NCBI GenBank assembly: GCA_002009975.1 | Contig: MTLP01000022.1 | Location: 1 to 64,000, forward strand | Direction: 5' to 3' | Length of the DNA: 64,000 nt | Source: Thermococcus sp. JdFR-02 | GTDB lineage: Archaea; Methanobacteriota_B; Thermococci; Thermococcales; Thermococcaceae | Shown: positions 21,100 to 44,885 of the stretch, piece by piece | Numbering within the stretch: the first letter of the stretch is position 1 | How the letters are laid out: every line of letters starts with the position of its first letter | Position numbers and translations under genes: made by a program | Notes under the pieces: model-generated | Databases searched by the model: none | Seen by the model: the letters and a program-made list of their open reading frames with translations, nothing else | What the model was told of the DNA's origin: nothing

Positions 21100-21399
21100 C
21101 TATCGGCAGTTATGCGGTGGTAGTCTAGCCTGGCCTAGGACAGCGGCCTGCCACGCCGCGGGCCCGGGTTCAAATCCCGGCCACCGCACCACCACTAATT
21201 TTTCAAGCCTTGAGAGAGCATCTTCTTGCGAAACTATTCCTGCAAGAACCATATTAACCACCCGCGAGAGATTATAACCTCTGCGCCTAACTTCCGCGAC
21301 CAAATCCTCATAAAGGTACAAATGAACACGTTTCTTTCGCCTTGTTTCAGCTTTAACTCCCGAATGAGAGCCGCTATTTTTATGCCCACGTTTGCCCAT
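21100..21399 (-). CDS. Integrase N-terminal fragment int(N)
   Basis: Shares VVRWPGFEPGPAAWQ (att read antisense) with int(C); RHH-like KKRVHLYLYEDLVAEVRRRGYNLSRVVN. Confidence 0.88.
   Translation of the reverse strand: MGKRGHKNSGSHSGVKAETRRKKRVHLYLYEDLVAEVRRRGYNLSRVVNMVLAGIVSQEDALSRLEKLVVVRWPGFEPGPAAWQAAVLGQARLPPHNCR
21114..21191 (+). tRNA. tRNA-Gly(GCC), provirus integration target
   Basis: GCGGTGG...CCACCGCACCA, anticodon arm GCGGC-CT-GCC-AC-GCCGC. Confidence 0.97.
21147..21192 (+). repeat. attL, 46 bp (tRNA-Gly 3' half from the anticodon arm)
   Basis: CCTGCCACGCCGCGGGCCCGGGTTCAAATCCCGGCCACCGCACCAC identical to 44840-44885. Confidence 0.97.
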
Positions 21400-21776: not shown

Positions 21777-21786
21777 ATTTTCACCC

Positions 21787-21892: not shown

Positions 21893-21972
21893 TTTATAAA
21901 CCCCTTACCATACAGGCTTGCTTGAGCATCAAGGAAATATTCTGAAAAATTAAGGCACAATTGTGCCACGGC

Positions 21973-22281
21973 TCAAGCCTCCTCTTCAATGCAAGGTTCA
22001 TTATAATAATAGCATTGTAAATCTTTGATGAATCTTCTAAGGAACTCATCTTTCTTGCTTGCTTCAACAAGTACTGCTCCTGCAATAAGAAGCTCTTCAG
22101 GAATGCTGAGTGAAATTTCCCCTTGGCTAACACTGAAAAGCCAGACATCAGCCCCATAAGTCAATTCAACTGCAACTTCCAATTCTTTTCCTTTGAATCG
22201 TATCTTCGCTAATACAATCACCTCATTCTCTAAATCAACCTCAACTTTCTTAACCTCTAAAACCTTCACCAAACCCATCAA
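21973..22281 (-). CDS. Viral hypothetical protein
   Basis: GGGGGTGG RBS; in early-gene run. Confidence 0.7.
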   Translation of the reverse strand: MMGLVKVLEVKKVEVDLENEVIVLAKIRFKGKELEVAVELTYGADVWLFSVSQGEISLSIPEELLIAGAVLVEASKKDEFLRRFIKDLQCYYYNEPCIEEEA

Positions 22282-22297
22282 ACCACCCCCTTTGCTT

Positions 22298-22447
22298 TTA
22301 TATTAACAAAACAATACCAAAGAAAGCGTCAAAATTGAAGAGATGAACATTGTTCAATTTTGTAATTAAGCGTGTGCTAAGATCTCTCCCTTTACTCACT
22401 CTATCCTGTACATCTATGTCCATTGATTTTGAACATTGTTCAATCAT
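22298..22447 (-). CDS. Possible 49-aa viral ORF (not in track)
   Basis: MIEQCSKSMDIDVQDRVSKGRDLSTRLITKLNNVHLFNFDAFFGIVLLI; TGATG coupling to upstream gene. Confidence 0.45.
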   Translation of the reverse strand: MIEQCSKSMDIDVQDRVSKGRDLSTRLITKLNNVHLFNFDAFFGIVLLI

Positions 22448-23034
22448 CAAACTACCCCCTTAAAGAGAAGCTTGAAAGTATCAACAACTTCTTCTGGTTT
22501 CATCTTAACAACAAAATCTTTCTCAATAACTGCATATCTATCTCTTGAAATTCCCTTTCCCCTGACCTCTGATCTTGGAACAACTCTGCTTGCATTGAAC
22601 AAATAGAACTCCTCCCACTCAACATTAACAAAATAGTATAAATCCCTGTTCAAAAGCCTTGAAAGATAGTAAAGTGTCTCAAACTGAGCCCAATTAACAG
22701 TAAGCTTTAAGCCCTTAGTTGTATAAGCATGCTTAAACTTCAGCTCGAAAAAGCCAAGATAACGTTTCCTCCTCCCATTATCCATAACCAAGACAGGAAT
22801 TGCATCAATATCATACATGATCAAGTTATGAGGAAACAGCTGCCTCATGACTGCTGAAAACAAAAGCTTGTTCTGAGCATCATTAAGCTGATTAACGAGA
22901 AAACGCTTAAGTTTCTCATCCTTTATAGTCTCATTTATATACTCCTTTACCGCTTCTATCTCCTCAATAGGCTTTGCCCTAAACTCATTACGAGAAAGCT
23001 GAGAAGAATAAAACGAAAGAACTTGCTTCCTCAT
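22447..23034 (-). CDS. Viral PD-(D/E)XK nuclease-like protein (resolvase-like)
   Basis: YDIDA...GFFELK and downstream Q (WAQFETL). Confidence 0.65.
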   Translation of the reverse strand: MRKQVLSFYSSQLSRNEFRAKPIEEIEAVKEYINETIKDEKLKRFLVNQLNDAQNKLLFSAVMRQLFPHNLIMYDIDAIPVLVMDNGRRKRYLGFFELKFKHAYTTKGLKLTVNWAQFETLYYLSRLLNRDLYYFVNVEWEEFYLFNASRVVPRSEVRGKGISRDRYAVIEKDFVVKMKPEEVVDTFKLLFKGVV

Positions 23035-23348
23035 AAGACTCCCACCTCACCTTGAGATTCGAAGATTTCCTCGACATGGTCCATGTCGAAGATTCCTTCG
23101 TCTCCAGGTCCTACTGTCGAAGATTCCTTCGAACTTCCTGGAGTCGAAAGTTTCTTAGACACTTGACTCAGCCACTTCAAGAACTCAATAATAGCTTCAC
23201 CCTTCTTCTCACTGATCTCAAATTCATCCCCTGTCCCATAATTCACGTAAGCTATCCACTTATGCCTCTTACTGTCATAATAGAAACTGATCTTCTCAAT
23301 CTTGCTTATATCAATCCCAAACTCACGCCACTCAACAACTACTTTCAT
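23031..23348 (-). CDS. Viral hypothetical protein
   Basis: ATGA-coupled within early operon. Confidence 0.75.
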   Translation of the reverse strand: MKVVVEWREFGIDISKIEKISFYYDSKRHKWIAYVNYGTGDEFEISEKKGEAIIEFLKWLSQVSKKLSTPGSSKESSTVGPGDEGIFDMDHVEEIFESQGEVGVL

Positions 23349-23857
23349 GCCCTCACCTCCTGGACCTTCAGCTCTCCAGTCTCGACGTTCAAAACATTCC
23401 TGACAACCCTAACCTTCCACCTATCCCAACTCCTGGAGATCCATGTTCCTGTTGAGCCCTCATTCCTCTTCCACAAGATTGCCGTTACCTTGAACTCTTT
23501 CCCATCAAAGCTCTCAAAAACAAGCCAGGCTCTAAGCTTTGCAACACCACTAGAGCGATAGCCATAATAGATTGCCTCCGCAAAAATAGGAGCGTATCTA
23601 ATGATAATCTTCCTCTTTCTCTTTCCTTTAAGCTGCAGAAATTCCCTATTGTTCCACTTCTTGAACTTTTTAAATTCTATATCAACCTCTGGTGGTTTGA
23701 ACTCTCTAACCCCAAGTTCTGGTAAAGAAAAGTCGTAGTGGGCAAAGAAGCTTCTGAGCTGCTCATATTCTGCTTTAGTTATGAAACGAGGCATATTGTA
23801 TGGTGGAATTATAAATTTGACATCACCAACCCTGACAACAACAGCAGCTTCGCTCAT
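23345..23857 (-). CDS. Viral hypothetical protein (basic, Trp-rich)
   Basis: ATGA-coupled; GGGGTGA RBS. Confidence 0.75.
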   Translation of the reverse strand: MSEAAVVVRVGDVKFIIPPYNMPRFITKAEYEQLRSFFAHYDFSLPELGVREFKPPEVDIEFKKFKKWNNREFLQLKGKRKRKIIIRYAPIFAEAIYYGYRSSGVAKLRAWLVFESFDGKEFKVTAILWKRNEGSTGTWISRSWDRWKVRVVRNVLNVETGELKVQEVRA

Positions 23858-24231
23858 CCTTTCACCCCCACTTTGATGATGGGAACCTCAGGAACTTCGG
23901 TTTCTGGAATTTGATAACGAGATACGAGAATAGCCTTCTCCTCTTTGCTCCAATGTGCGTGGGCAAGGGATTGCAATTTGGTGAGAATCTCTTTATATTT
24001 TTTATAAGGAACCTTTTGCCTAAGCCTTATTTTGTAGTATTTCCCATCAATAATTATTTTCACAGGCACGTCAAGGCTTTTAAGGACCTGCTTAACACGC
24101 TCAAGCTCCAGAACCTCAGCTTTCCCTGGCACCTCGTCATCATCAATAAGAACCTGAATCTGCTGAGCCTCCCACCTAGCTTTAGCCTCCTCAAACTTAG
24201 AAAGATGTTTAACTTTGGTCCGACCTTTCAT
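23854..24231 (-). CDS. Viral hypothetical protein
   Basis: AGGAGGTGA RBS; directly downstream of mcm. Confidence 0.75.
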   Translation of the reverse strand: MKGRTKVKHLSKFEEAKARWEAQQIQVLIDDDEVPGKAEVLELERVKQVLKSLDVPVKIIIDGKYYKIRLRQKVPYKKYKEILTKLQSLAHAHWSKEEKAILVSRYQIPETEVPEVPIIKVGVKG

Positions 24232-24235
24232 TCTT

Positions 24236-27025
24236 TCACCTCCTTAAAGTTGGAATAAAAACATCCGCGCGAATCTCCATTATTTCACCCTCTTTTTTCA
24301 AAATCTCCAAAATTTTATCTAAATCTCTCCTTGTAAGACCCTCTTGCCTCACTTTCTCAAGAACATGCTCATATGTTGCTTCACCTTTTTCTCTGTAAAG
24401 CCTAACAATTACATCCTTCACAATCTCATCATACTGAGCAACCTTCGAAGAAACACCCGCAACTAGATAATTCACATCAGGTAGTCCAGTTTCAGGATCA
24501 CGGAGCGTTGTATTGTACATAAACTCCATAAGCATAATTGCAACTCTTGCATCTTCAACTGTAACAACGTCACTTAATCTCATTCTTGCAGCAGCTTGAG
24601 CTAATCTGATCAAAGCCTCAGCTTGCCTTGCCGTTGCCGTTGTTATATCTTGAACACGCATGCCTTCAGCTTCATTTCGCAAAACCTTCTTGAACAAGTT
24701 CCTAAGATTGAGATATGCCTTCTCAAGCTCTTTTTCAGCCTCTTTTGAGAGTCTCGGAAAAACATGCTTTCTAGCATATGCAACATATTTCCGCAAAAGC
24801 TCTGGAGAAATTTTAGGCTTAACAACCTCAGTATCACCACTCCTAATCTTTGCAATATGTCTAAAAATCTCACGATCTTTCTTGTCATCAGGATCATCTA
24901 AAATCGTGAAGATTAAATCAAACCTGCTAAGGATCGTTGGAGGAAGTTTTATCTGCTCAACAATTGGTTTATAGCGGTTGAATCTTCCATGCTTTGGATT
25001 AGCTGCAGCAATAACTGTAGTTCTTGTGTTTATGATAGTCGTGATTCCCCCTTTACTGATACCCACCCTTTGCTGTTCCATTGCCTCATGGATCTTGTTC
25101 CTATCCTCTTCACTCATCTTATCCAGCTCATCTAAGAACGCGAAGCCTCCATCAGCAATTGTCAAAACACCAGCTTCAATAATCCAACCACCAGAAACAT
25201 CATCTCTGACTGCAACTGCAATCAGGCTCTTACCGGTTGAGTTTGGAGCGCTGGTGTAAATGCTTCTCGGGGCTTTACTAGCTGCTTGCGCGAGTATTGT
25301 AGATTTAGCAGTTCCCGGATCGCCAACAAGAAGAATATGAATATCTCCCCTAAGCCAAGTTCCATCAGGCAACTCTACTGGAACTCCTCCAAACAAAGCT
25401 AAAGCGAGACCAAGCTTAACTTCCTTCATACCCTTCGTCGCAGGAGCTATAGAATCAATAATATCGTCAATAAGTGTTGGACTCTGAGCAAGCTTTTTAA
25501 TTTTCATTTCATCCTCCGGAGTGATTTCAATATCTTCAAAAGAGGCAAACTCAGAGATAATGTTATTCACAATCAAAGCTTTTTCCTTGATTGGAAGCTT
25601 TGTAGCCTTTGAAGAATCAGCCCTAAGTCTGAGAATACCTACAAGGGTAATCCTATCTCCAGGTCTCACTTTATCAACCAAATCACCAAGAACAATGGCA
25701 TCAACGTGCCTTGGCAATTCACCACCAGACAGTTGTTCAGGTTTATCTTGGATCCTGATCCTCTGAGCATTCACAAACTCGCTCTTATCCTCATCTAAAA
25801 CCATATCCTTACTTCCACAATCGGTGCACCTAGATGGCTTTACCATAAAAGTAAAAGGCTTTTGAATGCGAATCATTTCATGACCACATTGCTTGCAGAC
25901 AAAGACTGCTTTCCTTACAAATGGCTGAATCGCTGATATTCTTGAAACAACGCCCTCCACTTGGATAAAACGATTGATATGATTAGAACCAATTTGTCTT
26001 GGCATTAAAGTCTCTGGTAGATTGTAAAAGCGGACTTGAATATCAAGAACTTCTCTTGAATCCTCTGGAATACCCAACTCATCTTGAATCTCCTCTATGG
26101 CTACTCTCAAGCCATCCTGAGCTGCAAGTAATGCCTCCTCAGGATCCTTAAGAACAGCCCTAGCGGTATTTGGACATGCAGCATTCAAATGCTTCCAATC
26201 AACATCAATAGCCTTAATAGGCAAAGTAGTCAAAGCCTCAATAATCTTATCACGATAAATCAGCTTATCTTTTCCATCAAAACGGACAGAATAACTCTTA
26301 AAGAAATCTGCAAAAGCCCTAATCATCTCTTCCCTTTCCCTACCATCAGCTAAAGCCTTTGCTTCTTTGAGCTGCTCCCTTTGAAGCAAAACCATCAACT
26401 GCTCATCAATATCCCTACGAACATCATCAAGAAGCCTATAGTACAGTGTTTTTCTAATCTCAGTTGGTTGAACAATGTCAGTATTATTAAGAACTCTTGA
26501 AATAGCCTGAGATAGTGTAGTAGATGTATATCTATTACCCAAGGATTGATTGATCTTTTTGGTTTTATCTTCTATTGTCTCTCTATCATAGAATTTCTCT
26601 TTACCATCTTCATGTGAAGGAAGAGTATAAAGAGCTAAAATTGGTATAGCTTCATTTGGTCTTCTTAGGTCAATTGCCTTTTTTACAGCTTCAATTAATA
26701 TCTCAAAGTCTTTTGCATTGTTTTGCATTTGGATTTGCAGTTTTGCATTGTTTTGCATTTGGGATGCAAAATGTGAGAAGTCTTTATTTTGAATTTGCAT
26801 GTCTTGCAAAGTTGGAAAATTATCTTTTTGCACAATTTCTTTATTGTTTACAATATTCTCTAGTTCTTGAACTGTGATGAAGTCTTTTTCAGAATAGCCA
26901 AATTTGAGCATTAGGTAATGTCTCAGTGCAAGATCCTGGATCTTCTTAACCTGCACTCTCTGAATCCCCATGTCTTTTAAGAACTGTAAGTACTCTTTTC
27001 CAATTTCAGCACTCATAAAAATCAC
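24236..27025 (-). CDS. mcm: Viral MCM replicative helicase with ~230-aa N-terminal extension
   Basis: CKQC..CTDC zinc finger, GDPGTAKS, LDELDKM, AAANP, SRFD, C-terminal wHTH. Confidence 0.95.
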   Translation of the reverse strand: MIFMSAEIGKEYLQFLKDMGIQRVQVKKIQDLALRHYLMLKFGYSEKDFITVQELENIVNNKEIVQKDNFPTLQDMQIQNKDFSHFASQMQNNAKLQIQMQNNAKDFEILIEAVKKAIDLRRPNEAIPILALYTLPSHEDGKEKFYDRETIEDKTKKINQSLGNRYTSTTLSQAISRVLNNTDIVQPTEIRKTLYYRLLDDVRRDIDEQLMVLLQREQLKEAKALADGREREEMIRAFADFFKSYSVRFDGKDKLIYRDKIIEALTTLPIKAIDVDWKHLNAACPNTARAVLKDPEEALLAAQDGLRVAIEEIQDELGIPEDSREVLDIQVRFYNLPETLMPRQIGSNHINRFIQVEGVVSRISAIQPFVRKAVFVCKQCGHEMIRIQKPFTFMVKPSRCTDCGSKDMVLDEDKSEFVNAQRIRIQDKPEQLSGGELPRHVDAIVLGDLVDKVRPGDRITLVGILRLRADSSKATKLPIKEKALIVNNIISEFASFEDIEITPEDEMKIKKLAQSPTLIDDIIDSIAPATKGMKEVKLGLALALFGGVPVELPDGTWLRGDIHILLVGDPGTAKSTILAQAASKAPRSIYTSAPNSTGKSLIAVAVRDDVSGGWIIEAGVLTIADGGFAFLDELDKMSEEDRNKIHEAMEQQRVGISKGGITTIINTRTTVIAAANPKHGRFNRYKPIVEQIKLPPTILSRFDLIFTILDDPDDKKDREIFRHIAKIRSGDTEVVKPKISPELLRKYVAYARKHVFPRLSKEAEKELEKAYLNLRNLFKKVLRNEAEGMRVQDITTATARQAEALIRLAQAAARMRLSDVVTVEDARVAIMLMEFMYNTTLRDPETGLPDVNYLVAGVSSKVAQYDEIVKDVIVRLYREKGEATYEHVLEKVRQEGLTRRDLDKILEILKKEGEIMEIRADVFIPTLRR
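26699..26881 (-). repeat. Iteron-like TGCAAA array inside mcm (putative origin)
   Basis: TTTTGCATTG/TTTTGCATTT at ~10-bp period 26711-26760 plus further TGCA palindromes; encodes QMQNNAK twice. Confidence 0.7.
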
Positions 27026-27333
27026 CGAGAAGAGTGATAGTCAAGAATTTCCACTTGTACAATATCCCCAAAATTTATCCCTAGCTTTTCTCTAATATCT
27101 TTAGGGATAACTATTAGTCCTCTGTCCTCTAAACGTTCAGAAATGGTGGCATATTTTCCAACTACTGGTTTCTTTTTAACAATCTTTGTAATTTTTGCCA
27201 CTCTACATTTTATGTAATCTCCCCTAGTTAGATTAAGAAGTTCTCTAGTGCTCTTTGGAATTACTATTCTGCCACCTTTTACAACTCTTGTGTGATATTT
27301 TACGATTGGAGTTCTATCCTCCATTGCTATCAC
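27022..27333 (-). CDS. AbrB/MazE/SpoVT-type DNA-binding protein (two swapped hairpins)
   Basis: GGRIVIPKSTRELLNL..GD and RGLIVIPKDIREKLGI..GD. Confidence 0.9.
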   Translation of the reverse strand: MIAMEDRTPIVKYHTRVVKGGRIVIPKSTRELLNLTRGDYIKCRVAKITKIVKKKPVVGKYATISERLEDRGLIVIPKDIREKLGINFGDIVQVEILDYHSSR

Positions 27334-27349
27334 CCGAATAATTCCTATT

Positions 27350-27457
27350 ATGTGATTAAATCACATTATTTAAATACTTTTCGGTTAGTGAAAATTACAC
27401 ATATCAAAAATCATAAATAATATGCGTGAGAATTTCATAATATCATGATAAAATCAC
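27350..27457. promoter_or_regulatory. Divergent promoter region with RTGA-N5-TCAY operators
   Basis: Palindrome ATGTGATT-A-AATCACAT 27350-27366; related sites at 27388, 27426, 27445; minus-strand BRE/TATA CGAAAAGTATTTAAATA. Confidence 0.7.
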
Positions 27458-27473
27458 AAATGGAGGGAGGATA

Positions 27474-27818
27474 ATGAGCGAATCTCAGGAATCTATTATT
27501 CGATATCATGCAAAAGTCACTAGTGGAGGTAGGATTATTATTCCTGATATAACCCGAAGGATATTGGGAATAAAGAAGGGTAACATTGTAAAACTAAAAG
27601 TTTCTAAGGTAGATAGTGTTAAAGAAAAAGAAAAGCGCGTGATAATAAGAACGGGTCCAGAAGTAATTTTTGAAGCAAAAGTTGGAAGTAGAGGCTTGAT
27701 TACTATTCCCGACAAAGCAAGAGAACTTCTTAAAATTTCAGATGGAGATTATGTAGAAGTGGAACTTCTAGACTATAAACCTGCCACTTTGGGACTTATA
27801 GAATTCCTCCGGACTTGA
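27474..27818 (+). CDS. AbrB/MazE/SpoVT-type DNA-binding protein, divergent paralog
   Basis: GGRIIIPDITRRILGIKKG and RGLITIPDKARELLKI..GD. Confidence 0.9.
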   Translation: MSESQESIIRYHAKVTSGGRIIIPDITRRILGIKKGNIVKLKVSKVDSVKEKEKRVIIRTGPEVIFEAKVGSRGLITIPDKARELLKISDGDYVEVELLDYKPATLGLIEFLRT

Positions 27819-27938
27819 ACAAAGAAGTTAATAAGTAAAGCTCTACTTAGGAAAAAATCAAAACCTTAAATAATTCTTCTCTTCAATGTGAAAAAGTTTA
27901 TATTTTGAGATGTTGTTTATTTTGTTTGGTGAATGTAA

Positions 27939-28226
27939 GTGCCGGAGTGTCCTTATTGTGGTAAGTGGTTTAAGACTAAGAGAGGTCTTGAACAGCATAT
28001 TACTAAGGTCCACAAGATTGATACTCCTTTTGGCAAGGCTTTGAATCCGGCATCGTTTGATTTTATGGGTAAGCTTAAGAGAGAGGAAGAGCGTGCTAAA
28101 AGGCGCCAGCAGAGGAAGAAATCTTCTGGTGGATTTGGTTTGGGATTTGGAGATCTTTTTGGATCATCGTCTGGTTCTAAAAAGAAGTCTAAGAAGAAAA
28201 AGAAGGGTCCGTTTGATTTCTTCTGA
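27939..28226 (+). CDS. C2H2 zinc-finger protein with basic tail (cargo)
   Basis: CPYCGKWFKTKRGLEQHITKVH. Confidence 0.8.
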   Translation: MPECPYCGKWFKTKRGLEQHITKVHKIDTPFGKALNPASFDFMGKLKREEERAKRRQQRKKSSGGFGLGFGDLFGSSSGSKKKSKKKKKGPFDFF

Positions 28227-28255
28227 TTGATTTTTGTATTGTTTGGTGATGTGAT

Positions 28256-29125
28256 ATGGGATTGAAGGATTTTCTTAAGAAAGCGGGAGAAGTCACGAAG
28301 AAGGCTGTGGATAGGGCAGCAAAGGAAGTGAAATGGCGTAGGAAAGTTGGTGAGGCAAAGAGGGAGATTCTCTCAAGGTTCACGGTCAAGCAGCTGGAGA
28401 GGATTGCTAATTCTAAAAGAATATCCCTTTATCGACAGGATCCATTTACGGGAGAGCGTGAACGTCTCCGCTCTAAGGGAGCAATTGTTGATAAGATTGC
28501 TTCTAATCTGAGCTTTCAGCAAGTTGTTGACTTGGCCAGGAGGTACAAGGTGAGATATTCCGACGTTGTTCAAGATCTTGAGAAGTTTAGGCAAGAGTTG
28601 TTTGAGGAAAAGCAGAGAAAGAGAGGGGAAGAGGAAATTCTGAGGGATATTTATGAAGTTGATGAGTTTGAAGAGGAATTTAGGAATGAATCTTCTAAAG
28701 TACTTGAGATGATAACTGAATTCGAACCAATGGGTATAGTGAGAGATGAAAAAGAGTTGAGAAATCAATTAGCTTCATGGCTTTCAGCCAAGCTTGGTAA
28801 GAGAGTTGTCAAGCTTGAATATCCATTTGAACACGGAAAAGTTGACATCCTTATTAAAGATGAGATAGCTATTGAAGTCAAAGTAGCAGACGGAAAACAA
28901 AAGTTGAAAAACCTTGTTGGGGAAGTTACAACTGACAAAATGTATTTCAGTAGTGTTATTGCAGTTATTTTTGATATTGGAAAGGATGTAGGGCTTGATT
29001 TCTTTGTTAATCAGTTGAAAGCCTTGGGTGCAATTACTGTTGTGATTCCTGCCCAAGTAAAGAAGAGTGGTCGTAGGCAGGAGATAGTTATTCGTCAGGG
29101 TCGGAGGAAGATAATTATTAGGTAG
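28256..29125 (+). CDS. Cargo protein with C-terminal PD-(D/E)XK nuclease domain
   Basis: EKELRNQL...EYPFEHGKVDILIKDEIAIEVK. Confidence 0.75.
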   Translation: MGLKDFLKKAGEVTKKAVDRAAKEVKWRRKVGEAKREILSRFTVKQLERIANSKRISLYRQDPFTGERERLRSKGAIVDKIASNLSFQQVVDLARRYKVRYSDVVQDLEKFRQELFEEKQRKRGEEEILRDIYEVDEFEEEFRNESSKVLEMITEFEPMGIVRDEKELRNQLASWLSAKLGKRVVKLEYPFEHGKVDILIKDEIAIEVKVADGKQKLKNLVGEVTTDKMYFSSVIAVIFDIGKDVGLDFFVNQLKALGAITVVIPAQVKKSGRRQEIVIRQGRRKIIIR

Positions 29126-29172
29126 TTTGGCAGGATACTCTGACAATCTTTTAGATAGTAGGTTGCCATGGG

Positions 29173-29943
29173 GTGATTAAAATGGATGCTAAACAAAGTT
29201 CCGAAAAGGATAAAAACTTTGAAAATTGGCTCGCTCTTCTCGTTAGATTCTACTTCATTGCAATAATATTCGGATTTTTAACAACAGTGTATGGCATTAT
29301 CTCTGGAAATGTATGGGAAAAACTCGGGAATTTGATGATCATGACTACTAGCGTTGCTATTACTGTTATAATGGTGTATTTTATTGCTCTCCAGACAAAA
29401 GCTACTAGAGAAATGGCTGAAAAAACTTCAGCCCAAGTTCAACTAACTCATGATATGGTAAAACAAATGGTTCAAGAAACGGCCATCATGAATGAAACTC
29501 TTATTGAAATGAAAAAACAACGCCTGAATATTGAAGAATACAAAAACTATCTCATTGAATATCTTAGGTACCTTGTCTTAAGATTGGAAGGAAATGCAAC
29601 TAGTGGCTATCAAAACGTTGAAGAGCCCTACTTGTTTATTTCGAAGAGATACAAGGATAGGATTGGCACGTCTTCTCTTTCTCCTGCAGAAGAGGGTTTC
29701 ATACGGAGAGTTTCGAGATTCATCGAGAAGTTCCTTAAGGCGCATGGTTTAGAACCTCAGGAAATAAGGAAATACAATAATTTAATCTCTGATTACAGTA
29801 GAGGCAATAGCCAACTTTTAAAAACTATTCGGGAGAGACCTAAGGAACTTCTGGAAATTACAAAACCTATTTTTCAGATGGTCGAGGAGATGAGTGATAA
29901 AGAATTAGAAGAGGAGATTTTGAGGACCTTGGGATTTTCTTAA
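29173..29943 (+). CDS. Cargo 2-TM membrane protein (FIALQTxATR family)
   Basis: Two N-terminal TMs then coiled coil; motif shared with 32020-32865. Confidence 0.75.
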   Translation: MIKMDAKQSSEKDKNFENWLALLVRFYFIAIIFGFLTTVYGIISGNVWEKLGNLMIMTTSVAITVIMVYFIALQTKATREMAEKTSAQVQLTHDMVKQMVQETAIMNETLIEMKKQRLNIEEYKNYLIEYLRYLVLRLEGNATSGYQNVEEPYLFISKRYKDRIGTSSLSPAEEGFIRRVSRFIEKFLKAHGLEPQEIRKYNNLISDYSRGNSQLLKTIRERPKELLEITKPIFQMVEEMSDKELEEEILRTLGFS

Positions 29944-29958
29944 TTAAAATGCCATGAG

Positions 29959-30429
29959 GTGGTGTTGGTGGACAATATGGTTTGGATAACTTTTTTTCTC
30001 ACACTTCTTTCCGGTGCCATTACAGCCCTAATAGGGGTTCATACCCAACATTGGTATTCTAAAAAGAAGACTCAAGAACGAATGATTAAAGCGTTAAGAG
30101 AAGAAATTCGAACAAATATTAAACGACTAGATTACAGTATTCAGTCTTTACAGAAAAAAGAAAAAACTGATAGAGAACTAACGCCTTATTTAACTGTTTG
30201 TTATGAGACATTCATAACTCAAGCTCCTGAATTATATTATGAATTATCATCAAGGACCAATTATCTTGTTGATGAAGCCTATGCAGATCTTCAAATGCTC
30301 AATAGGTTGTATACATTAGTAAATTTGGCAGTATCATTTACTGATGAGATTCCAGAACCTGAGATTAAGTTTTTGAAGGAAGTAAAGGAAAAATTAGAAA
30401 ATGTCTTAAGTGATTTGGAAAAATTGTAA
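29959..30429 (+). CDS. Cargo single-TM protein
   Basis: N-terminal TM then helical domain; stop codon lies inside the 91-bp mcm copy. Confidence 0.7.
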   Translation: MVLVDNMVWITFFLTLLSGAITALIGVHTQHWYSKKKTQERMIKALREEIRTNIKRLDYSIQSLQKKEKTDRELTPYLTVCYETFITQAPELYYELSSRTNYLVDEAYADLQMLNRLYTLVNLAVSFTDEIPEPEIKFLKEVKEKLENVLSDLEKL

Positions 30430-30513
30430 ACAATAAAGAAATTGTGCAAAAAGATAATTTTCCAACTTTGCAAGACATGCAAATTCAAAATAAAGACTTC
30501 TCACATTTTGCAT
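30423..30513 (+). repeat. Exact 91-bp inverted copy of mcm-internal 26764-26854
   Basis: ATTGTAAACAATAAAGAAATTGTGCAAAAAG...CTCACATTTTGCAT equals reverse complement of 26764-26854. Confidence 0.95.
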
Positions 30514-31424
30514 TATCCTCTTCTTTTTACTCTAACGATGGACTCTCCAAGATGGTTGTCAAAGATTTTAACAACTGGTGTTTGGTCAAATGTTAGTGTG
30601 ACAGTGTGATAGAGTGTCATTATTTTATCGTAGAAGTCTGAATCATTTTCCAAGTATTCTATTTTTAATCCTAGTTGTTGGGCTTTTTTGCGAGTTATAT
30701 GCCTGTCATGTACTTTTGTATCTTCATGGCTTGAGAGGTATTTTGCTATTTTTCGTGCTTTTTCAGCAGCATTTTGTTCTCCTTTAAACATGTATTTTTC
30801 GAGCCATTCTTGGACAAGTTCTTTTGCCAGTTCGGTTGCATATTCACATTCTATGAGTAAACCTGGTGGATATTGCCTTAATATTGGTATCCATGCGGCT
30901 ATTGCATTTGGGTTCTCTTCACATTCCTTCTTTGCTTTTTCAAATTGTTTTTGGATTGCTTCAGCTGATACCATCTGATGACCGTTTTCTGTTGGTATAA
31001 CAAACTGTGGATCTATTGGACCTAACGAGGAGTGTGATGCCATAACTATGACATCTGCTGCGGTTGCTATCATGGTTGCAGCGGACATTGCAGCTTGTGG
31101 GATTATGACACGTATGTGGTTGTATTTTTCTCTTAAGTAATCTACAAGGGCTTCAGCAACGGTTGGTGAACCACCAGGACTATGTAGGACTAAATCTAGT
31201 TCGTCTCCTTTTAGATTTCTTGTAATTTCGATGAATCCTTCTATGTCAATATCTGTTAGTGATACTAAGTGTGGAGGATTAGTTGGATCCATCCAAGCTG
31301 TTGCATAAAGAATAGTATCCCTACCAGTGTATTCGTAGATATCTTTTAAAAGATTCTGCCTGAAATGGTCATAAGGGTTAGGAAAATCTTCTATAGCGTT
31401 TAGAACGTCGTGCCAATTCACCAA
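30513..31424 (-). CDS. ClpP/S49-like serine protease (SDH_sah family), cargo
   Basis: LHSPGG, AMSAATMIA, SSLGPIDPQ, HDRHI. Confidence 0.85.
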   Translation of the reverse strand: MVNWHDVLNAIEDFPNPYDHFRQNLLKDIYEYTGRDTILYATAWMDPTNPPHLVSLTDIDIEGFIEITRNLKGDELDLVLHSPGGSPTVAEALVDYLREKYNHIRVIIPQAAMSAATMIATAADVIVMASHSSLGPIDPQFVIPTENGHQMVSAEAIQKQFEKAKKECEENPNAIAAWIPILRQYPPGLLIECEYATELAKELVQEWLEKYMFKGEQNAAEKARKIAKYLSSHEDTKVHDRHITRKKAQQLGLKIEYLENDSDFYDKIMTLYHTVTLTFDQTPVVKIFDNHLGESIVRVKRRG

Positions 31425-31437
31425 AAGGCTCCCACCT

Positions 31438-31626
31438 TCAAATTGATCTTGAACGTAGAATATAGTTTTTCTTTGCTTTATGTCTTGTTTTCCTACGTAA
31501 GTTTAGGTAGAAGTTATCTATTCTCTCAAGTCTTTCATAGAGTGTTATAGTGTTATATAAGCGTGTATTATCTCTTGATCTTTTTATAAGTTCTTCAAAC
31601 TCAATCTGTATTTTTAATTCTGCCAA
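31438..31626 (-). CDS. Small basic protein upstream of the protease
   Basis: GGGTGA RBS and upstream AAAAAATTTTATAAA promoter; TTG start. Confidence 0.55.
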   Translation of the reverse strand: MAELKIQIEFEELIKRSRDNTRLYNTITLYERLERIDNFYLNLRRKTRHKAKKNYILRSRSI

Positions 31627-31744
31627 TCTTCTTCACCCAATAAAGAGTTAGTATCAATTTTATAAAATTTTTTCTACATGCTATATACTATAATAGTGGA
31701 TATTATATAACGAAAACTTCATCTTTTAGGGCAAAGAGATCTTG

Positions 31745-31923
31745 TTCATCACAATCCAAGAGCTTGAGGATATAATACATATAAAAATTTGGAAAAAATA
31801 ATTTTTCCAAGTATTTCCGCAACGGAAATAGAAAAAGAAGCAAGGGAATCTTTTCCAATTGAAATGGAAAACAATGGAAAAATGGAAATCCAATTGGAAA
31901 AGAATGGAAAAGAGTTTGAAATA
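31745..31923 (+). repeat. Non-coding variant of the mcm iteron region with TGGAAA repeats
   Basis: Homologous to reverse complement of 26699-26881; core 31862-31923 matches 52/62 nt ungapped by hand count; in-frame stops, no ORF. Confidence 0.85.
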
Positions 31924-32019
31924 TATATCATAACAATCAAAAGCTAAAACCCTATTTATAACTTAAAGCGCAGTTACTGTTATTAATTAAAGAAAACAAA
32001 AAAAGATTGGTGGGAGGAG

Positions 32020-32865
32020 ATGCACAGAGAGTATACTTATTTCCGTACATTAATACTCCTTCTGCTATTGATAGTTGTTCTTGCTGTGATTATAGGAGTT
32101 ATACTCAAGCAATATCCTACTGCCGGAATTTATCTAAGTGCAACAGGTACCATAACAACAATATTAATGATCATATTCATAGCACTTCAAACTGAGGCTA
32201 CTAGGAAATCTGTTGAGGAGATTAGAAAAGACAGGCTCATGCCCGTTATGAAAAAAGTAATTGGTGCTCTTGGCATAACTAAAAAATTAATTATAGAAAA
32301 TAAGAATAATCTTAATGAGGGAAACTATTCTATTTATTTAATATCTCCTACGGTATCTACTACGGCACCAACCAAAATATTGAAGGATACCCTTCTCACA
32401 ATGGGTGAGGATTATATTGCAACTGTTAAAGCAAATGATTTACTAAAAGAATACGGAGTGGATATAGATAATTATAATAGAGAGATTGTTAATTTGATGA
32501 GTATTCTTAGAGAAATAGAATCGGTATTGTTAAGCGATAAAATTCTTCAGATCAAGTTACTGAAAATCCTCAAGAAATGGGAATTAAAAACAAACATTAC
32601 GGCTCCAAAACTTGAGACAATAATTAATAATTTTAGCAAACATGACTTTAATAGGAAATGGACTAGTGGGACTCCATATGAAAAATATCTAGAGTTATGG
32701 AGAGAATTAAAAGATTTCTTTAACAAGTACTCTGAAGAGAATGAAGAATTGAGAAAACTTCTTAAAAAACGACAAAAATATGTTGGAAGAATAATGGAGC
32801 ATTCTGATGAACTCATTGAGAAAATAGGCAAGATAGTAGAGGATATAAGCCGTGATGTCTTGTAA
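32020..32865 (+). CDS. Cargo 2-TM membrane protein (FIALQTxATR family)
   Basis: Two N-terminal TMs, FIALQTEATR; GGGAGGAG RBS; TATA at ~31953. Confidence 0.75.
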   Translation: MHREYTYFRTLILLLLLIVVLAVIIGVILKQYPTAGIYLSATGTITTILMIIFIALQTEATRKSVEEIRKDRLMPVMKKVIGALGITKKLIIENKNNLNEGNYSIYLISPTVSTTAPTKILKDTLLTMGEDYIATVKANDLLKEYGVDIDNYNREIVNLMSILREIESVLLSDKILQIKLLKILKKWELKTNITAPKLETIINNFSKHDFNRKWTSGTPYEKYLELWRELKDFFNKYSEENEELRKLLKKRQKYVGRIMEHSDELIEKIGKIVEDISRDVL

Positions 32866-32936
32866 CAGATTATAATATCACCATTTTTCCCTTGTTTCAT
32901 CTTTGAATCTTCTTTTGGATCATAACATCACCTCCA

Positions 32937-35006
32937 TCACGTTTCACGTGAGTAGTTATAGAATAGGTCCCACAGTGTCCAAGCTACTAAAAACACAAAG
33001 AGAACGAATGTTACTCCGCTGTTGGTTAGGTTTGGTTTTTCTCTGAGAATGCCAAGCCACATTGCTTGCATTATTAGTGCAGCACCAATGCCGGAGAGGG
33101 GATTTTGGGTTTGCCAGAGGACCACGATTGTTATCACGAAAATAAATCCTTGTGGGAGTATTAGCTTGATCATGCTGTCTGCTTTGATTGCGTTCACTAC
33201 AGTATCTCCAAAACTTCCGCCTGAGTCTAAAAATGCTTTTGCATATTCATTTATTGGTACTATTGCTTGTGAAAGGTTTTCTGGAATTGTGGGCTTGATT
33301 TCTGGAATTGTACTTGTTGTCTCATTTCCTTGCGGCTCAAGGTAAACGCTTATTGTTAAATCGCTTGTTAGTTCGATGTTTAGTGTTCTGTTTTCATAAT
33401 TTTCTTTTGAGAATGTGAGCGTATAATTTCCCTCAACTAATTGTAGACTTTCTCCAGAATTGAGATAGTTTGTTTCGTTGTTTACAGTGACGCTAACGTT
33501 GTTTAGCATGGTATTATTTGAGGCATCATAAAAATACAGTGTTATTAGTTTTACGTTGTCAAGCATTATATTAGTGAAATTCACTATTATCCCGTTTGCA
33601 TTAATGAGTTTCTGCAATGTAACGCTTTTGTAAAGCTCTTTTTCGAATCTAAAGACATACGTGCCATATTTAACTAAAGCACTATCACCGCTGTTAAAAG
33701 TTCCTAAGAGGGAATTATTCGCATAAACTGTAAAATTATTAATTAGCTGATTATTCACGTCATAAGCATAGAAATAAACCGTATAGCTTTGTCTATCTAA
33801 CGTTAGAGTTAGAGTAGTGTCGCTTTGAACGTCTAAAGTTTGCTGAGCATCAACATAATACTGCTTTTGAGCTAAAAACGTATGAGTGCCTGCAGGTATT
33901 ATAACACTATCACCGCTGTTAAAAGTTCCGTAAAAAGTATTATCTATGTAAACATCCACGCCATTGAGAGTATTCCCTAAATCGTCTTTGAAATCAAAAG
34001 TTACTGTAACAGGATTATTCACTTCTTCGGCTCCTATCGTAGTAGAGGGTTCTTGGTCGGTGTATTTGCGGACAAACACGTAATCCATTTGATAATGTTC
34101 TCCAAACTGGAAAAACGTTATCCTCCACCCTTGCACATTCACAGTTGTGGCGTATGAAGTTGTCCACGTTTGTCCACCATATGTTACTTTTCCAATCACT
34201 TCACTACTCTTTAACGTTGTTTCAATTGTGAAAATATCCCCATTTGCTGGTTGAAATGTTGATATTGTATTATAAATGGTATTATCAACTCTCACATTAA
34301 AATCCGCTGAAACTACCTTCTTGTTTGCTCCAATGTTGTATGTTTGATAGCTGTCAGGTGCCGCTCCTACAAAAATACTACCTGCATTAGGATAGTTTGA
34401 CACATGCTTAACTTTTGCTTTTATTATATAGCCATCCGTATTTGGAAATGTCCAGACACTTCTGAAATAATTCCAACCTGTTGAACTATCATAATCAATA
34501 TCCACCCAACTATTTGAGACAGTTGGAGCAGCATCAAGGTTGTACCATTCCCATTTCGTGTTATCAAACGTATTAAAATCATCAAAAAACTCAAAAACTG
34601 CATTCCCATCACTTGCATCTGTCGCTTGTGAGTTCCCATAGTAAAGATAAATTGTAGTGCTTCCTCCTGCTAGAATTGAGGGCACTTTAACCCAAATTAT
34701 AGCTTGTTGGTTTGTAGCATCCCAAGACTCTATATAATAGTTTAAGGGATTTCCTTGTGCGTCTGCAAATCTTATATCACTTCCATCAGCGTTTACTTTG
34801 TTCCAACTGTCAAAGTTTGTTGAATCTAGAGTTACCTTTACTTGAAAATCTGTTAAATCATACGCGTTATTATTTGTAATTGTTATCTCTCTCCTATAAA
34901 GCCAATTACTATAAACACTCGCCCAAGGATCGTTAGTGTTTGCTTGAATTAATGGGATTAAGCTTGATAACACTAAAAACAAGATAAGAAGTGAGAGCTT
35001 GCGCAT
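32937..35006 (-). CDS. Virion adhesin candidate: signal peptide, DUF2341, lectin-like, PEGA/Ig-like repeats, C-terminal TMs
   Basis: WLYRREITI, DGSDIRF, IWVKVP, IYLYYGN, FEFFDDF; GTFNSGDS repeats; many N-x-S/T sequons. Confidence 0.8.
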   Translation of the reverse strand: MRKLSLLILFLVLSSLIPLIQANTNDPWASVYSNWLYRREITITNNNAYDLTDFQVKVTLDSTNFDSWNKVNADGSDIRFADAQGNPLNYYIESWDATNQQAIIWVKVPSILAGGSTTIYLYYGNSQATDASDGNAVFEFFDDFNTFDNTKWEWYNLDAAPTVSNSWVDIDYDSSTGWNYFRSVWTFPNTDGYIIKAKVKHVSNYPNAGSIFVGAAPDSYQTYNIGANKKVVSADFNVRVDNTIYNTISTFQPANGDIFTIETTLKSSEVIGKVTYGGQTWTTSYATTVNVQGWRITFFQFGEHYQMDYVFVRKYTDQEPSTTIGAEEVNNPVTVTFDFKDDLGNTLNGVDVYIDNTFYGTFNSGDSVIIPAGTHTFLAQKQYYVDAQQTLDVQSDTTLTLTLDRQSYTVYFYAYDVNNQLINNFTVYANNSLLGTFNSGDSALVKYGTYVFRFEKELYKSVTLQKLINANGIIVNFTNIMLDNVKLITLYFYDASNNTMLNNVSVTVNNETNYLNSGESLQLVEGNYTLTFSKENYENRTLNIELTSDLTISVYLEPQGNETTSTIPEIKPTIPENLSQAIVPINEYAKAFLDSGGSFGDTVVNAIKADSMIKLILPQGFIFVITIVVLWQTQNPLSGIGAALIMQAMWLGILREKPNLTNSGVTFVLFVFLVAWTLWDLFYNYSRET

Positions 35007-44055: not shown

Positions 44056-44885
44056 TCCTCCAACACCTCTTTTAGCTTATCAACAACGCGAGAATAAGCC
44101 GTATCGGCTTTTTTCATCAAATCGAGATAGTGCTTCTCAAGAACAGAGCGTGAAACTCTGCTATGAATAAAGTTCACAAGATATCCGTCAATATAATCAA
44201 TGAGAAAATTAGTGTGCCATTTCCTTATCGTTGAGGGATTAACGCGCCCATAGTGGAGCTTCTTGTTAATCGTATCGTACTTCACATTTACTTGGCTTAA
44301 CTCATGTACAAGCTCCGCTGGAAAGTATACGAAAAAGGCTGCTTTCGTGCCTTTTCTCCCCATGAGTGGATACTTCGCCGCTTTGCCAAAAACAATGACT
44401 TTTGAAGCATCGTAGTTTGTGAGCATGTCATGAACAGCTGAGAGCCTCGCTCCGCTATAAACAAGAAGCTTGAAGAAAAGCAAAGTATCTACATCTGCAT
44501 GCTTCTTGAAGTACTCATAAGCCTCTCTGAGCTCTTCAATTGAGATGTAGATTTCTCTTTTACCAGTTTGCTTGATTTTGATAATCTCTTTCAACTGCTC
44601 GTGCTCTTCCCTTGTAATCACGTTTATCTCTTTCAAGAAGTGTATGAAATTTCTAAGTGCCTTGCAGAGGTTACGCTTGTAGTTTTCCTTGATTAATGCT
44701 TTTTGCAAGTCTTCATAGCTGTGTACCTTGTACTTAGCAAAAAATCTCTCAAGTGCTCTTAAGTAGTCTTTCGCTGTCTTTGCGGCTACTTTTTGTGAGA
44801 GCCATTCGCCAAATTGCTCCTTATATTTATTCCACCACTCCTGCCACGCCGCGGGCCCGGGTTCAAATCCCGGCCACCGCACCAC
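44052..44885 (-). CDS. Integrase C-terminal fragment int(C), SSV/pTN3-type tyrosine recombinase
   Basis: SGAR, KGTK, TIRKW, FIHSR, KHY catalytic positions; begins inside attR. Confidence 0.92.
   Translation of the reverse strand: MVRWPGFEPGPAAWQEWWNKYKEQFGEWLSQKVAAKTAKDYLRALERFFAKYKVHSYEDLQKALIKENYKRNLCKALRNFIHFLKEINVITREEHEQLKEIIKIKQTGKREIYISIEELREAYEYFKKHADVDTLLFFKLLVYSGARLSAVHDMLTNYDASKVIVFGKAAKYPLMGRKGTKAAFFVYFPAELVHELSQVNVKYDTINKKLHYGRVNPSTIRKWHTNFLIDYIDGYLVNFIHSRVSRSVLEKHYLDLMKKADTAYSRVVDKLKEVLEE
44840..44885 (+). repeat. attR, 46 bp
   Basis: Identical to 21147-21192. Confidence 0.97.

What the first reader, a model, noticed from the sequence alone, without database searches (positions are those of the whole stretch)
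30423..30513. Exact 91-bp inverted copy of the element's own mcm-internal sequence between convergent cargo genes
Seen: identical to the reverse complement of 26764-26854. It fills the whole gap between 29959-30429 (supplying its TAA) and the protease gene. Perfect identity implies recent copying or active homogenisation. Inference, three options: (a) incA-like self-titration site keeping the integrated origin quiet or setting copy number; (b) read-through from the minus-strand protease operon yields RNA fully antisense to mcm mRNA; (c) a recombination arm. Together with 31745-31923, it gives a self plus non-self pair of origin fragments flanking the protease cassette in direct orientation.
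Basis: partly seen in the sequence, partly recalled or inferred. Interest (0 to 1): 0.85.

Follow-up and report, generated by a model that had tools for sequence, protein, structure and literature searches.

The report
Inverted partial origin-array copy in archaeal provirus
An integrated archaeal virus carries a perfect 91-base inverted copy of a repeat-rich stretch inside its own replication-helicase gene, most likely a fresh recombination scar from a fragile candidate origin rather than a proven control element.

Summary
Positions 30423-30513 match the reverse complement of 26764-26854 at 91 of 91 bases, and these are the only two copies in the 2.36-Mb genome. k=31 unitigs of two runs from different studies are consistent with the duplication.

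The element is a 23.7-kb TPV1-like provirus in tRNA-Gly. The copied piece is mcm codons 58-88. It lies in a low-confidence linker between a small N-terminal domain and a winged-helix domain, and the linker DNA holds a unique array of nine TGCAAA motifs. Similar arrays with allele-specific motifs sit at the same place in 7 of 9 long-form viral or plasmid mcm genes examined. This resembles lambda ori inside gene O.

The second fragment (31729-31940) is a frameshifted mcm piece from a different allele, with eight TGGAAA motifs. Both fragments sit at the two ends of the only cargo module shared with a sister provirus.

None of 7 other mcm loci has such ectopic copies. I therefore read both as recombination or inversion footprints of a fragile candidate origin. 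As by-products, the 3.57-kb early-gene segment becomes invertible and a few extra binding sites are added. Titration, antisense RNA and a selected switch remain untested.

The parts
30423..30513 (+). L: exact 91-nt ectopic copy of mcm codons 58-88, sense on the + strand and inverted relative to mcm. It holds 4 TGCAAA motifs, including one TTTGCA-N5-TGCAAA palindrome. It lacks the five 10-bp tandem units.
   Evidence: unitigs
26764..26854 (-). Source segment inside mcm (codons 58-88), immediately 5' of the 10-bp tandem units.
26712..26832 (-). TGCAAA motif array: 9 copies in both orientations, with 10-bp tandem units at 26711-26759. It covers mcm codons 65-105. It is the only cluster of 6 or more per 150 nt in the 2.36-Mb genome, and it is the candidate origin or iteron array.
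   Evidence: fold z -2.21; AF2 pLDDT below 50 at residues 64-101
24236..27025 (-). mcm, 929 aa. It has an MCM_N/OB/P-loop/lid core (aa 236-834) and a virus-type N-terminal extension of about 228 aa (small domain, linker, winged helix).
26855..30422 (.). 3568-nt segment between the inverted arms. It holds mcm codons 1-57, AbrB-like gene 27022-27333 (-), a divergent promoter gap, AbrB-like 27474-27818 (+), a Zn-finger ORF 27939-28226, the RecB-like nuclease 28256-29125, and ORFs 29173-29943 and 29959-30429. Recombination between the arms would invert it and cut mcm off from its start.
   Evidence: topology
31729..31940 (+). R: pseudogenised fragment of a different mcm allele (codons about 43-115), with one frameshift and two stops.
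31790..31910 (+). TGGAAA motif array inside R: 8 copies, 10-bp tandem units at 31863-31911, and three strong palindromes. It is the only such cluster in the genome.
   Evidence: fold z -3.67, 0 of 200 shuffles
30513..31424 (-). ClpP-like SDH-type serine protease (PF01972), a cargo gene. It is absent from TPV1 and 72% identical to the gene in the G086 sister provirus.
31438..31626 (-). 62-aa ORF upstream of the protease in the same operon. It is 42% identical to the 71-aa ORF at the same place in G086.
29959..30429 (+). 156-aa membrane-anchored ORF whose last Leu codon and TAA stop come from L. Its homologue in G019 runs about 9 residues further.
32020..32865 (+). 281-aa ORF to the right of R. 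It has no family and no TPV1 or G086 homologue.
21147..21192 (+). attL: the 3' half of tRNA-Gly(GCC), which lies at 21114-21191.
44840..44885 (+). attR: direct repeat of the tRNA-Gly 3' half. It overlaps the start of the SSV-type integrase ORF 44052-44885 (-). The N-terminal integrase piece lies at 21100-21399 (-).

Best explanation
L is a recent, unselected recombination footprint. It is a partial ectopic copy of a repeat array that lies inside the linker-coding part of the provirus's own mcm gene. That array is most likely the viral origin, or at least the binding array for the winged-helix N-terminal extension of the MCM.

The array appears to be a fragile, recombination-prone site. It has twice left an inverted partial copy in a gene-free gap of the neighbouring variable region. 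R is the older copy, taken from a TGGAAA-type allele that was later replaced or has since evolved. L is the new copy, taken from the present TGCAAA allele.

My preferred way of making L (inference) has two steps:
1. The segment from the mcm linker to the 156-aa ORF/protease junction was inverted, with a 91-nt staggered break in the array. Fill-in of the stagger duplicated the 91 nt in inverted orientation.
2. Homologous recombination between the two arms flipped the segment back and restored mcm.

Templated repair of a break in the convergent gap is the alternative.

What L does now is a by-product. It makes the 3568-nt early-gene segment invertible, and the flipped form separates mcm codons 58-929 from the promoter and codons 1-57. 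It also offers four extra TGCAAA sites.

Shown: the copy, its source, the arrays and their allele-specific motifs, and the mosaic context.
Inferred: origin function, fragility, and the inversion route.
For: (1) L is exact and short, and no diverged homology continues on either side. This fits a single recent copying event and not gene conversion of an older fragment.

(2) L and R come from the same 200-nt part of a 2.8-kb gene. Both are inverted relative to mcm and both sit in gene-free gaps. In a search of 61 genomes with the N-terminal extension, the only two orphan fragments found were these two.

(3) They lie exactly at the two ends of the only cargo module shared with the G086 sister provirus, namely the protease and the small ORF. 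G086 has neither fragment. 5 of the 11 ORFs that lack a TPV1 homologue form the block 29173-32865 that contains both fragments.

(4) 0 of 7 other long-form mcm loci hold an ectopic copy of their mcm 5' 450 nt. 0 of 5 showed one by self-BLAST. It is therefore not a conserved design.

(5) The source is a special DNA site. 7 of 9 long-form mcm loci have a cluster of 5 to 9 copies of one hexamer at codons about 22-121. The motif differs by allele: TGCAAA, TGGAAA, TGGGAA, GGGACA, TGAAAA, GTTCAA, ACGAAC. 1 of 100 shuffles of the element gives any hexamer cluster of 6 or more.

(6) The array codes for residues with pLDDT below 50 (64-101), lying between two folded parts.

(7) A preprint reports frequent mcm exchange in these virus families and proposes origin recognition by the N-terminal winged helix (PMC12934983, passages read).

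(8) One end of L coincides with the start of the 10-bp tandem units.

(9) The present orientation matches TPV1 synteny.
Against: - Two fragments of the same small region flanking one cassette in the same orientation could equally reflect selection.
- L keeps a palindromic site pair. R keeps three near-perfect palindromes and all of its tandem units despite a frameshift. That is not what long neutral decay predicts.
- No close relative of this provirus was available, so 'absent in relatives' rests on elements with at most 43% MCM identity.
- No read evidence for a flipped isomer was obtainable.
- The staggered-break route is recalled from eukaryotic inversion literature and was not tested.
- The 91-nt unitig depth is 2.5 times its flanks, not 2.0 times, and this is unexplained.
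Confidence: 0.45

Rival explanations
1. Selected iteron decoy (incA-like). L, and perhaps R, are kept because they bind the array-binding protein, presumably the MCM N-terminal winged helix. L would titrate or handcuff the resident initiator-helicase to limit replication of the provirus or episome. R would titrate the helicase of a competing TGGAAA-type virus, giving incompatibility or superinfection exclusion.
For: - L retains 4 of the 9 TGCAAA motifs, including one palindrome.
- R retains 8 TGGAAA motifs, three palindromes and the tandem units, with fold z -3.67.
- A real full-length mcm with a TGGAAA array exists in G110:C3.
- Both motif clusters are unique in 2.36 Mb.
- A new self copy lying beside an old non-self copy is what 'the copy tracks the allele' would look like within one lineage.
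Against: - 0 of 7 other mcm loci have extra arrays.
- L lacks all five tandem units, which are the densest part of the array.
- Binding is untested.
- Gene-free gaps are also where neutral insertions survive.
Confidence: 0.2
2. Selected inversion switch. The 91-bp arms are kept because flipping the 3568-nt segment turns full-length mcm off and on. This would give the lysogen a stochastic replication lock.
For: - Perfect inverted arms bracket the mcm start, its promoter region and the early operon.
- The unitig graph allows both orientations.
- As I recall, and did not check here, Thermococcales recombine short homologies efficiently.
Against: - No invertase lies next to the arms. The only recombinase found is the SSV-type integrase 14 kb away.
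- The flipped form gives no in-frame fusion, because the 156-aa ORF reads the arm in another frame and stops there.
- No joint or strand-change record appeared in 4 runs, although contigs cannot show rare isomers.
- It is not seen in 7 other loci.
Confidence: 0.12
3. Trans-antisense control. The protease operon transcript runs through L and carries up to 91 nt perfectly complementary to mcm mRNA codons 58-88, lowering MCM synthesis when the cargo operon is on.
For: The geometry is correct. After the protease stop the minus strand has only a T4 run at 23-26 nt, and the first T5 runs are at 61-65 and 90-94 nt. A 3' UTR of 25-90 nt antisense to mcm is therefore plausible.
Against: - The target lies 170-260 nt inside the ORF, far from the start.
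- L has no special RNA fold on either strand (z -0.70 and -0.39).
- R would have no target in this genome.
Confidence: 0.08
4. Assembly artefact: the duplication does not exist in the DNA.
For: The genome is a 44-contig assembly from a metagenome-type sample. Repeats shorter than the read length can be mis-joined.
Against: - A single 3628-nt unitig has both ends inside the same end of the repeat. The 91-nt unitig has 2.5 times the flank depth. The same break points recur in a run of another study.
- Only the orientation of the inner segment remains open.
Confidence: 0.02

Closest known systems
Thermococcus prieurii virus 1 (TPV1; proposed 'Sethviridae')
   Same: - 18 of 29 main ORFs have colinear TPV1 homologues: SSV-type integrase, AbrB/Zn-finger/nuclease block, two lectin-type genes, ATPase.
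- Its mcm has an N-terminal extension.
- It also has a motif array (TGGGAA/TCCCAA, 7 copies) at the homologous place in the mcm 5' part.
   Different: - TPV1 has no ectopic copy of the array, no protease cassette and a different motif.
- Its mcm is annotated as two ORFs.
Phage lambda ori inside gene O, and allele-specific iterons of lambdoid phages (recalled, not checked here)
   Same: - A repeat array lies inside the initiator's own gene, in the part coding a flexible linker between the DNA-binding domain and the rest.
- The motif differs between alleles.
   Different: - Here the initiator is an MCM helicase with a winged-helix extension.
- Origin function and binding are not shown.
- Lambda has no ectopic partial copies.
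Extra iteron clusters of iteron plasmids: P1 incA, F incC, R6K (recalled; a review by Chattoraj 2000 is listed in the references of PMC2926602)
   Same: A second cluster of initiator-binding repeats lies outside the origin on the same replicon.
   Different: - Those loci hold full iterons, often more than the origin has, and they are conserved within the plasmid family.
- L holds the 4 least regular of 9 motifs, is inverted, and is absent from 7 related loci.
Self-loading initiator helicases with cognate iterons: SaPI Rep and the SCCmec MCM-like Cch (search listing and abstracts only: PMC9371898, PMC7581432, bioRxiv 10.64898/2026.10.17.759575)
   Same: A helicase is fused to an N-terminal origin-binding domain, with allele-specific repeats next to or in its gene.
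   Different: - They are bacterial and their iterons lie outside the coding sequence (as I recall).
- No decoy copies have been described.
Inverted duplications at inversion breakpoints (staggered-break model, Drosophila; recalled)
   Same: An inverted copy of the sequence at one breakpoint lies at the far end of the inverted segment.
   Different: - That is eukaryotic.
- Here the segment is in the ancestral orientation, so a second flip must be assumed.
- Nothing was tested.
Invertase-driven switches (Hin/Gin, fimS; recalled)
   Same: Inverted repeats bracket a promoter-bearing segment.
   Different: - There is no dedicated invertase next to the arms.
- The arms are 91 bp of coding sequence, not short recombination sites.

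Membership tests
TPV1-like spindle-virus provirus | Colinear homologues of TPV1 core genes | tested here: met
   18 of 29 ORFs hit TPV1 at E<=1e-5 in the same order. DNA identity is 71% over the Zn-finger and nuclease genes.
TPV1-like spindle-virus provirus | SSV-type integrase split by integration into a tRNA gene, with flanking att repeats | tested here: met
   PF16795 at E 1.8e-40 in ORF 44052-44885. A 57-nt direct repeat of the tRNA-Gly 3' half lies at 21147 and 44840.
Origin embedded in the initiator gene (lambda O type) | Array of short repeats inside the initiator ORF, in a linker-coding part | tested here: met
   9 TGCAAA motifs lie at codons 65-105. pLDDT is below 50 at residues 64-101. 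7 of 9 related loci show the same feature.
Origin embedded in the initiator gene (lambda O type) | Motif specific to the allele | tested here: met
   Seven different hexamers occur in seven loci. R and G110:C3 share TGGAAA.
Origin embedded in the initiator gene (lambda O type) | Initiator binds the repeats and replication starts there | not testable with these tools
   Only indirect hints exist. The N-terminal extension model gives weak winged-helix matches, with 0 hits at E<=0.001. The cumulative GC skew minimum falls in the bin 26001-27000, but this is confounded by gene orientation.
Iteron copy-control locus (incA-like) | Cluster of the same initiator-binding repeats outside the origin | tested here: inconclusive
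   L has 4 TGCAAA motifs but none of the five tandem units.
Iteron copy-control locus (incA-like) | Conserved in related replicons | tested here: not met
   0 of 7 other long-form mcm loci have an ectopic copy.
Iteron copy-control locus (incA-like) | Deletion raises copy number, and extra copies lower it | not testable with these tools
   This needs an experiment.
Antisense (countertranscript) control of a replication gene | Transcript complementary to the rep mRNA | tested here: inconclusive
   Complementarity is perfect by construction, and the T-run positions allow read-through. No stranded RNA was laid.
Invertible DNA switch | Inverted repeats flanking a promoter-bearing segment | tested here: met
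Invertible DNA switch | Dedicated recombinase beside the segment | tested here: not met
   No recombinase family was found among the ORFs in 21456-35006. The integrase is 14 kb away.
Invertible DNA switch | Both orientations present in the population | tested here: inconclusive
   No joints were seen in 4 runs, but all are k=31 contigs that cannot resolve a 91-bp arm.

The most novel reading that the evidence does not exclude
Thermococcales viruses and plasmids keep their origin as an allele-specific iteron array inside the linker-coding part of a self-loading MCM. This provirus has weaponised spare arrays. The self copy (L) would throttle, or flip off, its own helicase during lysogeny. The non-self TGGAAA array (R) would act as an origin decoy that soaks up the helicase of a competing virus. 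That would be an incompatibility-type superinfection exclusion not described for archaeal viruses.
Probability: 0.12. Interest if true: 0.8.

Novelty: new variant of a known kind. Interest (0 to 1): 0.5.

Why it matters
A 2026 preprint proposes that Thermococcales viral MCMs recognise their own origins through an added winged-helix domain. In the passages I read it names no sites. The arrays found here give concrete candidate sites with natural specificity variants: TGCAAA, TGGAAA, TGGGAA, GGGACA, TGAAAA, GTTCAA and ACGAAC. Domain-swap and binding tests therefore become straightforward.

The provirus also offers a natural experiment. One genome holds a full self array, a truncated self copy and a foreign array. 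If the copies turn out to be functional, this would be the first iteron-decoy or flip control seen in an archaeal virus. If they are scars, they mark the candidate origin as a recombination hot spot that drives the module shuffling already noted in these families.

Tried and rejected
Searches for close relatives that led nowhere:
- The search for related loci with the whole MCM found no relative in genome contigs, viral contigs or metagenome contigs.
- With the nuclease, it found nothing in viral contigs and one 38%-identical 3.2-kb contig in genome contigs.
- With the protease, it found 15 metagenome loci of only 35-40% identity (one at 58% over 31 residues), which I did not examine further, and nothing in viral contigs.
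- A degenerate 18-nt iteron pattern in viral contigs gave more than 113 unspecific hits. None of the 80 stored loci encodes an MCM relative.
- An alignment of seven N-terminal extensions was too poorly conserved to search with.
- G022:C21 has a nuclease 87% identical but shares only the Zn-finger/nuclease block.
- I fetched G020, G102, G117 and G110:C124. They showed no long-form MCM (only a 260-residue core match in L072) and I dropped them from the counts.

Annotation and structure searches:
- PADLOC gave no defence family for the protease, its small partner or the neighbouring ORFs.
- Foldseek of the N-terminal extension model against the PDB gave 0 matches at E<=0.001.

Reads:
- Parts of the stretch without cover in X2-X4 (for example 30288-30483 and beyond 31563 in X2) prove nothing.

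Ideas considered and rejected:
- An in-frame fusion created by inversion. The 156-aa ORF reads the arm in another frame.
- L as a converted remnant of an R-like fragment. There is no flanking homology.
- A target-site duplication around L. None is visible.
- L as an RNA structure or hairpin terminator. The fold z-scores are -0.70 and -0.39.

Tools and papers not available:
- The TPV1 paper (PMC5935114) is not held.
- Supplements of PMC12934983 (Supplementary Text S1B, Figures 9-10) and of PMC6972569 may describe origins or repeats. I could not see them.
- Literature searches found no description of iterons inside mcm. That covers three searches of the held library only.

Full report
**Observation**

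The 91-nt stretch 30423-30513 is an exact reverse complement of 26764-26854. The match extends to 94 nt with one mismatch. BLAST of the whole assembly (window = contig C7 of a 44-contig, 2.36-Mb genome) finds only these two copies.

The copy fills the gap between two convergent ORFs:
- ORF 29959-30429 (+) takes its last Leu codon and its TAA from the copy.
- The stop of the protease ORF 30513-31424 (-) begins with the copy's last base.

Public unitigs back the duplication independently of the window's assembler.
- In run X1, which may be the source sample, one 3628-nt unitig covers 26825-30452. Both of its ends therefore run 30 nt into the same end of the repeat.
- The repeat itself is a separate 91-nt unitig at depth 218, against about 86 for its flanks.
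- In X2, from another study, unitigs stop at 26793 and start at 30484, the same branch points.

This graph requires an inverted duplication. It cannot say which way round the inner 3568 nt lie. No joints were reported.

**Context**

The window holds a 23.7-kb provirus bounded by a direct repeat of the 3' half of tRNA-Gly (21147 and 44840). An SSV-type integrase is split by the integration.

18 of its 29 main ORFs have colinear homologues in Thermococcus prieurii virus 1 (TPV1 annotation). The host belongs to a family of about 2-Mb archaea whose cellular MCMs are 52% identical to the core of the viral one, and the only titled relative found is a Thermococcaceae MAG.

Five consecutive ORFs (29173-32865) have no TPV1 homologue and form the variable block. 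Both mcm-like fragments lie inside it.

**The source of the copy**

mcm (24236-27025, minus strand, 929 aa) has the usual MCM core plus an N-terminal extension of about 228 residues. An AlphaFold model built on six sequences shows three parts:
- a small folded part (residues 5-60);
- a stretch with pLDDT below 50 (residues 64-101);
- a well-predicted helical/winged part (residues 104-234).

Its PDB matches are all weak (0 at E<=0.001) and of the winged-helix kind.

L is codons 58-88. The DNA of codons 65-105 carries nine TGCAAA motifs in both orientations, including palindromes, plus five 10-bp tandem units. This is the only cluster of 6 or more per 150 nt in the genome. The region folds better than shuffles (z -2.21).

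**The array is a family feature with allele-specific motifs**

I looked at nine long-form viral or plasmid mcm loci. Seven have a cluster of at least five copies of one hexamer in the 5' linker region:

| Locus | Motif | Copies |
|---|---|---|
| This element | TGCAAA | 9 |
| TPV1 | TGGGAA/TCCCAA | 7 |
| G110:C3 | TGGAAA | 6 |
| G069 | GGGACA | 9 |
| Own contig C9 | TGAAAA | 7 |
| pTN3 | GTTCAA | 6 |
| Own contig C19 | ACGAAC | 6 |

G083 has none. G070 has only four, and it has inverted repeats upstream of its mcm instead. One of 100 shuffles of the 24-kb element gives any hexamer cluster of six or more.

The protein on either side of the array is conserved between TPV1 and this element. The array therefore sits in a hypervariable coding linker. 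This is the arrangement known for lambda ori inside gene O (recalled).

A 2026 preprint proposes that these N-terminal winged helices recognise the viral origin. In the passages I read it names no sites (PMC12934983). Older plasmid papers place predicted origins near Rep genes, in intergenic repeats (PMC6972569 section 12; PMC2926602 passages). That the array is the origin remains my inference.

**The second fragment**

R (31729-31940, + strand) aligns to mcm codons about 43-115 at 71-72% DNA identity. It needs one frameshift and contains stops, so it is a pseudogene piece and not an independent intergenic element.

Its repeats are uniformly TGGAAA (8 copies, unique in the genome). It has three strong palindromes (z -3.67, 0 of 200 shuffles).

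G110:C3 has a full-length mcm with the same motif and 75% identity over the array. R therefore stems from a different allele. 'Non-self' is a fair label, although R could also record an earlier state of the resident allele. The resident array still has one TTTTCCAA half-site.

**Where the fragments sit**

A sister provirus in the same tRNA-Gly of genome G086 shares the structural genes, the protease (72%) and the small ORF (42%) at the same position. It differs in three ways:
- It has a different replication gene (697 aa, no Pfam family), with its own intergenic repeat and palindrome region.
- It has different neighbours on both sides of the cassette.
- It has neither L nor R. The gaps there are 10 and 37 bp.

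L and R thus lie exactly at the two mosaic joints of the one shared cargo module.

**Are ectopic copies a design feature?**

The first 450 nt of each mcm were searched against their own 4-34-kb locus. Extra copies appeared only in this window (L at 91 of 91; R at 63 nt and 84%). None appeared in the 7 other loci. Two hits of 15-19 nt at E 0.007 in G070 are noise. Self-BLAST of five loci agreed. A 61-genome search with the N-terminal extension found orphan fragments only here.

None of these relatives is close (43% MCM identity at best). All attempts to find closer ones failed.

**Interpretation**

Several features fit footprints of recombination at a fragile site better than a conserved control device:
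- one small source region was used twice;
- both copies are inverted relative to mcm;
- both lie in gene-free gaps at mosaic joints;
- one copy is perfect and one diverged;
- the arrangement is absent from other elements.

One route gives exactly the present layout. First, the segment between the array and the convergent gap is inverted, with a 91-nt staggered break in the array, and fill-in duplicates those 91 nt in inverted orientation. Second, recombination between the arms flips the segment back and restores mcm. This is inference. The model is recalled from eukaryotic work. It would also explain why one end of L coincides with the edge of the tandem units.

Whatever its origin, L has consequences:
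- It makes the early-gene segment invertible. The flipped form separates mcm codons 58-929 from the promoter and codons 1-57, and creates no in-frame fusion.
- It offers four extra motifs.
- It places up to 91 nt of mcm antisense in the likely 3' UTR of the protease transcript. The first T5 run is 61-65 nt past the stop.

I give the scar reading 0.45, a selected decoy 0.20, a selected switch 0.12, antisense control 0.08 and artefact 0.02.

**Points against my reading**

- R's DNA features are better preserved than its reading frame.
- L keeps a palindromic site pair.
- A self copy lying beside a non-self copy is also what allele tracking by selection would produce.
- The 2.5-fold unitig depth is unexplained.

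**Verdict**

The most useful result is a by-product: allele-specific repeat arrays inside the linker-coding part of Thermococcales viral and plasmid mcm genes. They are concrete candidates for the origins that these self-loading helicases are proposed to recognise.

Novelty: a new variant of a known kind. Interest: 0.5.

Noticed in passing
window 26712-26832; L016 429-523; L049 294-408; L068 11558-11688; L050 10648-10739; L186 4086-4170; G000:C19 33817-33902: 7 of 9 long-form viral or plasmid mcm genes carry a unique cluster of 5-9 copies of one hexamer in the linker-coding 5' part. Each allele has a different motif. These are candidate embedded origins.
   Followed up: partly
G086:C10 294439-319619 (L063, L064): A sister provirus lies in the same tRNA-Gly, with the same structural genes and the same protease cassette. 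Its replication gene is different (697 aa, no Pfam family), and it has its own repeat and palindrome region at 301122-301372.
   Followed up: partly
window 27022-27333 (-) and 27474-27818 (+): Two AbrB/SpoVT-like genes face away from each other across a 140-bp gap directly upstream of mcm. TPV1 has only one at this place.
   Followed up: no
window 30423-30513, run X1: The 91-nt repeat unitig has 2.5 times the depth of its flanks rather than 2.0 times. This could mean a third context in the sample, or it could be noise.
   Followed up: no
G000:C8 97542-102605: The cellular MCM lies in a 1699-aa open frame, with the P-loop domain matched in three separated pieces, as expected for inteins. The genome has three further mcm genes on C7, C9 and C19.
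   Followed up: no
L016 (TPV1) 880-1100: TPV1 mcm is annotated as two ORFs. The break follows a run of about ten G, so it may be a homopolymer slip or a sequencing error.
   Followed up: no
window 26000-32500, runs X2-X4: Three marine metagenome runs from other studies hold pieces of this provirus with no base differences listed. Cover is patchy, and in X2 it stops at 31563.
   Followed up: partly
window 30513-31424: The closest phage-database relatives of the ClpP-like SDH protease are in bacterial phages (Gordonia, Shewanella, Porphyromonas; 34-40% identity), not in archaeal viruses. No PADLOC family matched.
   Followed up: partly
L048 (G070:C1) 9049-9093 and 9360-9491: This long-form mcm lacks a strong internal array. 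It has a palindrome and an inverted repeat pair 250-700 nt upstream of its start instead.
   Followed up: no
window 33675-33718 and 33900-33943: A 44-nt direct repeat (82% identity) lies 225 nt apart inside the 689-aa DUF2341/PEGA lectin-type gene. It probably reflects an internal domain repeat.
   Followed up: no
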